This document shows, piece by piece, positions 44,709 to 45,155 of a stretch of DNA of 64,000 bases (positions are counted from its first letter, which is position 1; the number at the start of each line of letters is the position of its first letter). Both the position numbers and the translations under genes were made by a program. A model generated the notes under the pieces. The model had not been told where the DNA came from and searched no databases. It saw nothing but the letters and a program-made list of their open reading frames with translations. The stretch comes from Eledone cirrhosa (Eukaryota): contig OZ024760.1 in assembly GCA_964016885.1 (NCBI GenBank), forward strand, positions 6,014,001 to 6,078,000, written 5' to 3'.

Positions 44709-44841
44709 AAGTTATATTTAAAAATTGTTGTGTTACAACCAGTAAATATTTATAACTGATATAAAAGCACTCGACAAATATTTGGAGTATATTTACAATA
44801 TTAAATAAATGGAAAACTATATTTATAAAACCATATCTATT

Positions 44842-44898
44842 TCATTATATATATTTCGGGGATATCATATTAACAATATGCTATGCCTTCATCAGACA
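44842..44898 (-). ncRNA. Minimal hammerhead ribozyme motif
   Basis: Minus strand UUGU-CUGAUGA-A-GG..auagcauauuguuaauaugauau..CC-GAAA-UAUAUA-UA^-AUGA. Confidence 0.65.
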
Positions 44899-45098
44899 AA
44901 ATACAATATAAACAGTTTTATAGATAAATATATTCGACATACCGTAATAAACATCGACTTCATTCGAAGAGGTTTACTAGCATATTGTTAATATGATATC
45001 CCCGAAATATATATAATGAAATAGATATGGTTTTATAAATATAGTTTTCCATTTATTTAATATTGTATTTTATAAATATAGTTTTCCATTTATTTAAT

Positions 45099-45155
<57 letters not shown>

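What the first reader, a model, noticed from the sequence alone, without database searches (positions are those of the whole stretch)
44794..45104. Inverted repeat whose left arm overlaps a complete hammerhead and whose right arm restarts inside stem II
Seen: 90-bp arms (44794-44883 / 44978-45067) with a 94-nt spacer and a 37-bp tandem duplication of the arm end. The minus strand has a full minimal HHR (CUGAUGA at 44889-44895, GAAA-UAUAUA-UA). The inverted copy begins at TAGCATATTG, within stem II. This single locus shows directly that an inversion breakpoint maps to HHR stem II, supporting the reading of families A-C.
Basis: partly seen in the sequence, partly recalled or inferred. Interest (0 to 1): 0.7.

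Follow-up and report, generated by a model that had tools for sequence, protein, structure and literature searches.

The report
Inverted Penelope-type insertion with hammerhead ribozyme
A 399-base insert in a TA repeat of a likely octopus genome holds a complete hammerhead ribozyme motif plus a shorter inverted copy of itself and is likely a truncated Penelope-like retrotransposon; one of its breakpoints does fall in the ribozyme's stem II, but similar inserts nearby break elsewhere in the ribozyme, so this locus alone shows no stem II rule.

Summary
The minus-strand hammerhead has the published features of Penelope-like (PLE) ribozymes and is not chance (0 of 300 shuffled windows). This is the known PLE 'direct copy + inverted 5'-truncated copy + tail' layout, in an octopod. 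The inverted copy does end at nt 5 of stem II, but chance for that is about 0.18, the direct copy runs 82 nt past the core, and a 94-nt spacer is no stem II fold-back. Re-parsed, family B joins in the CUGAUGA core, neighbour I copies all of helix II and stops at C3, and F stops before the ribozyme. What survives is broader: ends cluster in the 5' half of the hammerhead (3-6-fold; P 0.0002-0.08 by counting rule), none at the cleavage site. No homologue of this element was available. Ordinary locus; suggestive window-wide pattern.

The parts
44645..44705 (.). (TA)n tract, left flank; inferred insertion target
44706..44793 (-). 88-nt one-sided tail (3' extension of the direct copy); its outer end is the inferred first reverse-transcription start site
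   Evidence: (arm does not extend past 44794); tail concept from PMC8557442 and PMC11167929
44766..44787 (-). tail hairpin CUC-stem-YY-GAG-Y-R-C, 6 nt downstream of the arm end; shared with families A and B and, by eye, with published Hydra-clade PLE ends
   Evidence: paper sequences seen
44794..44883 (-). left arm = part of the direct copy that is duplicated; 44794 is the inferred second start site
44838..44903 (-). type I hammerhead motif of PLE kind: helix I 44903-44896/44845-44838, core 44895-44889, extra A 44888, helix II 44887-44858, GAAA 44857-44854, palindromic helix III 44854-44847, predicted cut after 44846
44884..44977 (-). 94-nt spacer = part of the direct copy not duplicated (first 4 nt of helix II, core, helix I 5' strand and 74 nt upstream); 44977 is the 5' truncation point of the direct copy
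44978..45067 (+). right arm = inverted, more deeply 5'-truncated copy; begins at nt 5 of helix II, carries GAAA, helix III and the cut site but no CUGAUGA
45068..45104 (+). second copy of the outer 37 nt of the arm; inferred false start at the same start site (no microhomology at its ends)
45103..45152 (.). (TA)n tract, right flank

Best explanation
The stretch 44706-45104 is a 399-bp ORF-less insert between two (TA)n tracts, made of a direct copy with a full hammerhead motif and an 88-nt tail plus a shorter inverted copy, and it is likely a 5'-truncated Penelope-like (probably Hydra-clade) retrotransposon insertion. Shown: the layout, the motif, the tail hairpin and its 6-nt offset from the arm end. 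Inferred mechanism: a PLE protein supplied in trans cut both strands of the (TA)n target and primed two cDNAs at two fixed internal sites of the element RNA, as the anole PLE does in vitro (PMC11167929). The cDNA from the outer site (44706) copied 272 nt, through an uncleaved hammerhead, to 44977. The cDNA on the other strand started at the inner site (44794), aborted after 37 nt, restarted at the same site and stopped after 90 nt inside helix II. The two cDNA ends were then joined head to head by end joining. The stop in helix II is read as a premature stop, perhaps favoured by the 5' half of the ribozyme but not dictated by stem II pairing. In this copy the ribozyme is predicted to be masked by the 90-bp hairpin and is probably inactive.
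For: Layout equals the published PLE one: inverted 5'-truncated copy next to the 5' end, tail at one end only, (TA)n target (PMC8557442 passages; PMC3846280 passages). Hammerhead meets the PLE features of PMC4209133 (extra nt between 9 and 10.1, G10.1-C11.1, palindromic helix III, long helix II). Tail hairpin: 8 hits in the window against mean 0.087 (max 1) in 300 shuffles; the motif was built from E, A and B, and the 2 hits not used to build it (10623, 44544) both lie in short (TA)n-bounded segments. Arm end lies 6 nt before the hairpin in 5 of 5 copies checked (E, A2, A3, A4, B1), as expected for a fixed start site. The same hairpin is seen by eye at the 3' end of Hydra-2_Amil and at the 5' start of Hydra-1_Ajap. 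Hydra PLEs with hammerheads and (TA)n targets are listed for Octopus bimaculoides, the host is an octopod (exon 90% identical to Octopus sinensis ZO-1), and 31 recently active PLE families are reported in O. vulgaris (PMC13282606). [quoted passage not shown] The 37-nt repeat begins at the same start site and has no end microhomology.
Against: No second copy of this element in the window, none in bacterial/archaeal genomes (0 hits), and no eukaryotic genome collection was available, so conservation of this family's core is untested. No PLE RT or GIY-YIG domain among 147 of 165 non-repetitive ORFs of 55 aa or more. E's tail shows no convincing sequence similarity to other tails beyond the motif (best 47 of 2000 shuffles reach the score, others 103-1523 of 2000). 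Tail is 88 nt, longer than the 30-40 nt published. Six motif strings from the window's hammerheads had 0 hits in the Craig et al. supplement. A target-site duplication cannot be seen in (TA)n. The two-cDNA joining step has not been shown for any PLE in the texts I read. The arm end is ambiguous by a few nt because the flank is TA.
Confidence: 0.72

Rival explanations
1. Stem II fold-back (first reader; the self-priming idea of Arkhipova et al. 2013): the nascent strand folds on stem II and primes its own copying, which makes the inversion.
For: Inverted copy ends in helix II just after the nascent DNA can close a 6-bp hairpin (-2.2 kcal/mol). Family A palindromes centre on a hairpin that abuts GAAA. 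Palindromes at inverted PLE junctions were read as self-priming in PMC3846280.
Against: Fold-back would give a spacer no longer than the loop; here it is 94 nt and holds the whole core. B and C junctions reach into the core, I and F lie outside helix II. It does not explain why the inverted arm stops 6 nt before the tail hairpin in three unrelated families. It may still hold for family A.
Confidence: 0.07
2. The folded hammerhead (core and helix II, perhaps protein-bound) is a programmed stop or joining site for the reverse transcriptase, so cDNA ends collect in its 5' half; this locus is one such stop.
For: Ends between GAAA and 5 nt before C3: 14 of 19 ends on 413 of 1288 nt (P 0.0002); 10 of 15 with one end per palindrome (P 0.01); 8 of 12 with family B collapsed (P 0.024). 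Element I passes an 89-nt helix II and stops at C3; F's direct copy starts 3 nt before C3. No end lies at a cut site.
Against: 6 of 10 (P 0.076) once D and J, whose cores were not seen, are dropped. Zone limits were set after seeing the data, lengths for B', B'', D and J were read by eye, elements were found partly through their hammerhead halves, and few masters may have been amplified. The direct copies of E and G read through the whole ribozyme; a published Hydra consensus has a 966-nt inverted copy with the whole ribozyme. The hammerhead fold is rare in the predicted ensemble.
Confidence: 0.25
3. The clustered ends are the natural 5' ends of the template RNA: transcription starts inside the upstream pLTR, in the 5' half of the hammerhead, and short copies are run-off products primed at the start sites near the RNA's 5' end.
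For: The tail hairpin is the 5' start of Hydra-1_Ajap, so start sites also exist close to the 5' end of a full-length RNA; pLTR promoters are reported. Would explain run-off at C3 in I and F regardless of helix II length.
Against: At this locus the direct copy extends 82 nt beyond C3, so at least one template began further upstream. Ends vary from loop II to helix I among families. No transcript data available.
Confidence: 0.2
4. A plain direct insertion was later rearranged at DNA level (replication template switch or repair) next to an unstable (TA)n tract, giving the inverted arm and the 37-bp duplication.
For: Long (TA)n tracts flank the site; arms are identical, which could reflect a recent event or conversion. 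Family A shows a flipped centre (A2 against A4), which recombination between arms could also give.
Against: Same 6-nt offset to the tail hairpin in unrelated families; no microhomology at the duplication; the layout is the published PLE one.
Confidence: 0.07
5. A MITE-like DNA transposon with TA target, or an assembly artefact.
For: Inverted arms and TA flanks; the tailless palindrome at 44285-44400 looks like a MITE. PLE inverted structures are known to trouble assemblies.
Against: The arms are not terminal (88-nt tail outside the left arm), the element holds a hammerhead that shuffles do not give, and several unrelated families share the geometry, some with diverged arms.
Confidence: 0.02

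Closest known systems
Hydra-clade Penelope-like elements (Craig et al. 2021, PMC8557442; includes Hydra-1_Obim of Octopus bimaculoides)
   Same: (TA)n target, hammerhead 40-60 nt from the 3' end, 3-4 bp helix III with UA/UU/UC cut triplet, inverted 5'-truncated copy at the 5' end, one-sided tail, CUC...GAG hairpin at the tail start (by eye).
   Different: No ORF here; tail 88 nt rather than 30-40; helix II 30 nt with C before GAAA (most listed Hydra motifs have a shorter helix II and U there); sequence is not that of Hydra-1_Obim's 3' end.
Minimal PLE hammerheads (Cervera and de la Pena 2014, PMC4209133)
   Same: Type I, extra nt between 9 and 10.1, G10.1-C11.1, palindromic helix III suited to a dimer, long helix II, mostly solitary copies; pairs on opposite strands 100-700 bp apart were already reported.
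   Different: Helix III is 8 nt, closer to their 'small palindromic helix III' variants than to the minimal form; helix I is 8 bp; the opposite-strand partner here is only a 3' half.
Poseidon element PAc of Anolis (Frangieh et al. 2024, PMC11167929)
   Same: Two internal start sites that delimit the tail, both target strands extended, AT-rich target, uncleaved RNA as template.
   Different: Autonomous, other clade; start sites lie in the ORF; formation of inverted junctions was not addressed in the parts read.
Adineta vaga Penelope copies with palindromes at the inverted junction (Arkhipova et al. 2013, PMC3846280)
   Same: Head-to-head inverted pLTR shorter than the direct one, optional tail.
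   Different: Predates the hammerhead description, so no mapping to the ribozyme; at this locus there is no palindrome at the junction.
Non-LTR retrozymes (bioRxiv 10.64898/2026.07.22.740005; PMC7229834 listing only)
   Same: ORF-less, type I hammerhead, linked to PLE pLTRs.
   Different: Retrozymes are head-to-tail tandem repeats with two or more whole ribozymes; this is a single whole motif in an inverted layout.
L1 twin priming (recalled, from no call)
   Same: Two primers on opposite target strands yield an inverted 5' segment; elements I and B'' (inverted arm joined almost directly to the tail) have that geometry.
   Different: Twin priming gives little overlap between the segments; here 90 nt are duplicated and the second start site is fixed.

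Membership tests
Type I hammerhead ribozyme, PLE kind | Core CUGANGA, GAAA, UH with helices I-III in type I order | tested here: met
   0 of 300 shuffled windows with the strict descriptor
Type I hammerhead ribozyme, PLE kind | Extra nt between 9 and 10.1, G10.1-C11.1 pair, palindromic helix III | tested here: met
   features from PMC4209133
Type I hammerhead ribozyme, PLE kind | Match to an Rfam hammerhead model | tested here: inconclusive
   no hit, but the clean minimal motif at 30726 is missed too
Type I hammerhead ribozyme, PLE kind | Core conserved and helices covarying in homologous copies | not testable with these tools
   no second copy in the window; no eukaryotic genome collection; 0 hits in GTDB genomes
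Type I hammerhead ribozyme, PLE kind | Self-cleavage (monomer or dimer) | not testable with these tools
   predicted fold is a minor species: monomer 1e-6 to 2e-4; swapped dimer -11.6 against -20.9 kcal/mol for the best cofold
Penelope-like element (EN+) | Single ORF with PLE RT and GIY-YIG endonuclease | tested here: not met
   none in the element; none among 147 of 165 ORFs scanned in the window. So filed as a likely truncated or non-autonomous derivative, not as an autonomous PLE
Penelope-like element (EN+) | Inverted 5'-truncated copy adjacent to the 5' end, tail at one end only | tested here: met
   definition in PMC8557442; tail is 88 nt, not 30-40
Penelope-like element (EN+) | Hammerhead near the 3' end, within the repeated part | tested here: met
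   cut site 52 nt from the arm end
Hydra clade of PLEs | (TA)n insertion preference | tested here: met
   shared with Naiad and others, so not diagnostic alone
Hydra clade of PLEs | RT phylogeny and endonuclease without CCHH motif | not testable with these tools
   no protein linked to the element
Hydra clade of PLEs | Tail hairpin like that of published Hydra ends (my addition, not a published criterion) | tested here: inconclusive
   seen by eye in Hydra-2_Amil 3' end and Hydra-1_Ajap 5' start, loosely in Hydra-1_Amil and Hydra-1_Crog, not in Hydra-1_Obim; 5 of 6 novel Hydra 3' ends were viewed; other clades not checked
Non-LTR retrozyme | Tandem repeat with at least two consecutive units each holding a whole hammerhead | tested here: not met
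   definition
MITE (Tc1/mariner type) | Terminal inverted repeats at both element ends | tested here: not met
   left arm lies 88 nt inside the element; right arm is followed by a 37-nt repeat

The most novel reading that the evidence does not exclude
Octopus genomes hold many unrelated families of short, ORF-less, Hydra-type PLE derivatives whose cDNAs are ended and joined at the 5' half of the uncleaved hammerhead, giving tailed palindromes with two headless ribozymes that are rebuilt at each insertion; the PLE hammerhead would then act as a stop or joining signal for reverse transcription rather than (only) as a self-cleaving RNA, linking two open questions: what the PLE ribozyme is for and how inverted pLTRs arise.
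Probability: 0.25. Interest if true: 0.72.

Novelty: new member of a known kind. Interest (0 to 1): 0.4.

Why it matters
The locus itself is an ordinary example of a known PLE insertion layout. Its value is as one data point in a window that holds about a dozen such inserts from about eight unrelated families. They give two testable landmarks: a fixed second start site 6 nt before a conserved tail hairpin, and an excess of cDNA ends in the 5' half of the hammerhead with none at the cut site. The role of the PLE hammerhead is stated as unclear in PMC8557442, and cleavage was dispensable in vitro in PMC11167929; a genome-wide tally of these ends in octopus would test directly whether the ribozyme fold, the RNA 5' end or chance sets them. 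It would also show whether part of what is annotated as MITE or unknown repeat in octopus is PLE-derived (inference).

Tried and rejected
Rfam at gathering score over the window: 0 hits; at E <= 10 over 44700-45110 three unrelated chance hits; same test on the clean motif at 30726 also fails, so Rfam was dropped as a judge. Self-BLAST: no second copy. Exact-pattern scans of GTDB genomes for family A and for this element, hoping for host contamination: 0 and 0. Pfam scan for a linked PLE ORF: none in 147 of 165 ORFs (18 left out: 12 tandem-repeat copies and 6 frames overlapping the RTE ORF); only an RTE-like reverse transcriptase at 45814-48204 and a CARD exon. Homologue search with the RTE protein did not name the host; the CARD exon did. 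Folding z-scores of the motif are not above shuffles. Local alignment of tails gave no convincing similarity beyond the motif. An 11-nt match between the spacer and family B' was judged chance by eye. Annealing of the two cDNA ends: 3-4 bp only. Cleavage-defined ends: rejected, none of the ends tabulated lies at a cut site; G's upstream repeat starts about 15 nt after it. Reading B' as having an intact helix I: rejected, its 5' flank does not pair. D (8181-8297) is too decayed to place a core. Alignment held one mis-cut row and was not used for counts.

Full report
OBSERVATION. The arms 44794-44883 and 44978-45067 are exact reverse complements, the spacer is 94 nt and 45031-45067 is repeated at 45068-45104. 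The minus strand reads helix I (44903-44896), CUGAUGA (44895-44889), one extra A, a 30-nt helix II region closed by G10.1-C11.1, GAAA, the palindrome AUAUAUAU, A17 (44846) and an 8-nt strand that pairs with helix I. A strict descriptor built from the features in Cervera and de la Pena 2014 (PMC4209133; parts 1-2 of 4 and part 1 of 3 of the supplement read) finds 2 loci in the window, this one and 30726, against 0 in 300 of 300 locally shuffled windows and 0 of 20000 shuffles of the direct copy. The descriptor was written after I had seen the locus. Rfam reports no hammerhead but also misses the clean motif at 30726. The hammerhead fold is a minor species in the predicted ensemble (1e-6 to 2e-4 as monomer), and in a transcript of the whole element the 90-bp hairpin removes it (10.1-11.1 pair probability 3e-28).

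WHAT IT IS. The element is larger than the finding: 44706-45104, between (TA)n tracts at 44645-44705 and 45103-45152. Read on the minus strand it is: 37-nt inverted piece, 90-nt inverted copy, then a 272-nt direct copy whose last 88 nt (44793-44706) are not duplicated. That is the layout described for Penelope-like elements: an inverted 5'-truncated copy next to the 5' end and a tail at one end only (Craig et al. 2021, PMC8557442, passages; Arkhipova et al. 2013, PMC3846280, passages). The host is an octopod: an exon at 11341-11628 is 90% identical to residues 1-96 of Octopus sinensis ZO-1, and no other ZO-1 exon was found in the window, so the locus may lie in a long intron (inference). Hydra-clade PLEs with hammerheads and (TA)n targets are listed for Octopus bimaculoides (supplement part 2 of 59) and 31 recently active PLE families for O. 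vulgaris (PMC13282606, part 1 of 3; its supplement was listed but not read). No PLE protein domain was found in 147 of 165 ORFs scanned, no second copy of the element is in the window and none in GTDB genomes.

RELATED INSERTS IN THE WINDOW. A survey of local inverted repeats and of (TA)n-bounded segments (30 segments examined, among them 24 of the 38 listed, the rest of those being satellite or low-complexity) gave other inserts of the same build, lettered by me: A (12600, 15260, 42424, 49677), B (42635, 44286) with relatives B' (14724) and B'' (12753), C (8433), D (8181, decayed), F (49211-49409), G (30726), I (45153-45435, the next segment to the right), J (14884-14994). All carry the 3' half of a hammerhead; E (this locus), F, G and I also carry the core (E and I pass a long-loop descriptor that gives 0 in 500 of 500 shuffles; F's helix II does not pair well and fails the descriptor). 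Tails of E, A and B start with a hairpin CUC-stem-YY-GAG-Y-R-C whose inner stem differs among families: 8 hits in the window against mean 0.087 in 300 shuffles. The motif was built from these three families; the two further hits (10623, 44544) lie in short (TA)n-bounded segments but show no hammerhead. The outer end of the inverted copy is 6 nt before this hairpin in 5 of 5 copies checked, with a few nt of doubt from the TA flank. By eye the same hairpin is at the 3' end of Hydra-2_Amil and at the 5' start of Hydra-1_Ajap in the Craig supplement, which suggests Hydra-clade kinship and that the tail is the start of the next tandem copy. Beyond the motif, E's tail is not convincingly similar to the others. 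In family A, variants are mirrored in both arms of a copy (A1 differs from A2 at 5 of 52 sites in both arms, 0 between its own arms), and A2 and A4 have the same centre flipped relative to the tail; this fits arms copied afresh from one RNA species, or conversion between arms.

THE STEM II CLAIM. The inverted copy ends at nt 5 of helix II. Of 171 positions where it could have ended, 30 are in helix II (0.175), so one locus is weak evidence. The partner end lies 82 nt upstream of C3; fold-back on stem II cannot leave a 94-nt spacer, and the two ends can form only 3-4 pairs. The other inserts do not confine ends to stem II. With the Hydra-type spacing, B reads core remnant-U-3 bp-loop-3 bp-U-GAAA, its 2-nt spacer continues the antisense core, and B' keeps a core with one change and a different loop (chance of the core match roughly 0.04), so B joins in the core; C joins at the core/helix II border (weaker: 3 core positions, 2 bp); A joins in loop or helix II. 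I copies an 89-nt helix II region whole and stops at C3. F's inverted copy stops about 22 nt 3' of the cut site and its direct copy starts 3 nt before C3. G's direct copy reads through the ribozyme into an upstream 80-bp repeat, period 471. A published Hydra consensus has a 966-nt inverted copy with a whole ribozyme. A broader pattern remains: ends between GAAA and 5 nt before C3 number 14 of 19 (413 of 1288 nt; P 0.0002), 10 of 15 with one end per palindrome (P 0.01), 8 of 12 with B collapsed (P 0.024) and 6 of 10 without D and J (P 0.076). Left out of that count: A1 and A3 (family A counted once), the two tail-only hits, and G's long read-through (which would raise the ratio). The zone was drawn after seeing the data, several lengths were read by eye, and elements were found partly by their hammerhead halves, so this is suggestive only. 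No end lies at a cut site.

MECHANISM. Most likely (0.72): a PLE protein acting in trans cut both strands of (TA)n and primed two cDNAs at two fixed internal sites, as shown in vitro for the anole element, where the tail is the stretch between the two sites and uncleaved RNA is the main template (Frangieh et al. 2024, PMC11167929, parts 1-2 of 4). Layout, motif and offset are shown; protein source, priming, restart and joining are inferred. Why the second cDNA stopped where it did is open: a stop at the folded ribozyme (0.25), an RNA 5' end in the ribozyme (0.2; strained at this locus), stem II fold-back (0.07), or plain low processivity. These last figures concern the inner end and overlap with the main account.

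KNOWN AND NEW. The layout, the PLE hammerhead, opposite-strand ribozyme pairs and palindromes at inverted junctions read as self-priming are in print. I found no paper that maps inverted junctions or 5' ends onto the hammerhead, or that describes ORF-less half-hammerhead palindromes or the tail hairpin: searches (0 papers), of an open-access library only; most listed papers were seen as listings alone. Also read: bioRxiv 10.64898/2026.07.22.740005, part 1 of 5 (its supplements are closed); PMC8969392 and PMC6431247, passages. The 2017 terminon paper was not held and the A. vaga sequence file could not be read; both could bear on novelty, as could Repbase or Dfam entries that I could not see. 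L1 twin priming is recalled, not from a call.

VERDICT. Observation confirmed; interpretation partly supported. The locus is a new member of a known kind (a likely non-autonomous or truncated PLE copy; the ORF criterion is not met, so it is not filed as an autonomous PLE). Interest 0.4, carried mostly by the window-wide pattern; novel case probability 0.25, interest 0.72 if true.

Noticed in passing
45153-45435: Next (TA)n-bounded segment: minus-strand hammerhead motif (core 45311-45305, 89-nt helix II region, palindromic helix III at 45211-45204) joined at C3 directly to a plus-strand tail; inverted arm plus tail with no duplicated part.
   Followed up: partly
44285-44400, 44422-44644, 44706-45104, 45153-45435: Four tail- or hammerhead-bearing inserts sit in a row in one expanded (TA)n locus between two RTE-like LINE pieces (43427-44252 and 45811-48204).
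   Followed up: partly
12515-12730, 15183-15375, 42424-42613, 49600-49792: Family A tailed palindromes with two headless hammerheads; three different centres, one flipped relative to the tail; variants mirrored in both arms.
   Followed up: partly
42635-42823, 44285-44400, 14724-14849, 12753-12830: Family B: tailed palindrome, tailless palindrome that looks like a MITE, a solo direct copy with a near-complete core, and an inverted arm joined almost directly to a tail.
   Followed up: partly
8356-8555 and 8181-8297: Two further palindromes with hammerhead 3' halves (C, and the decayed D).
   Followed up: partly
49211-49420: Element F: full core with poorly pairing helix II; inverted arm ends before reaching the ribozyme.
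   Followed up: partly
30298-30848: Clean minimal hammerhead at 30726 (plus strand) in an ORF-less unit with 80-bp direct repeats, period 471: a likely partial-tandem non-autonomous PLE derivative.
   Followed up: partly
14884-14994 (minus): Solo hammerhead 3' half with 5-bp helix III, starting about 22 nt before GAAA, no tail.
   Followed up: partly
10593-10690 and 44422-44644: Tail hairpin motif in (TA)n-bounded segments with no recognisable hammerhead.
   Followed up: no
2052-2141: Near-perfect 43-bp-arm palindrome without hammerhead motifs, inside another repeat family.
   Followed up: no
13714-13893: Inverted pair of a high-copy short repeat found at several other places in the window.
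   Followed up: no
11341-11628 (plus): CARD-domain exon matching residues 1-96 of Octopus sinensis ZO-1; if the rest of the window is its intron, the many perfect hairpins would form double-stranded RNA in the pre-mRNA (inference).
   Followed up: partly
45811-49252 (minus): RTE-like LINE with a 797-aa open frame (RVT_1 and PHD finger), interrupted upstream by an 800-bp (TA)n expansion.
   Followed up: partly
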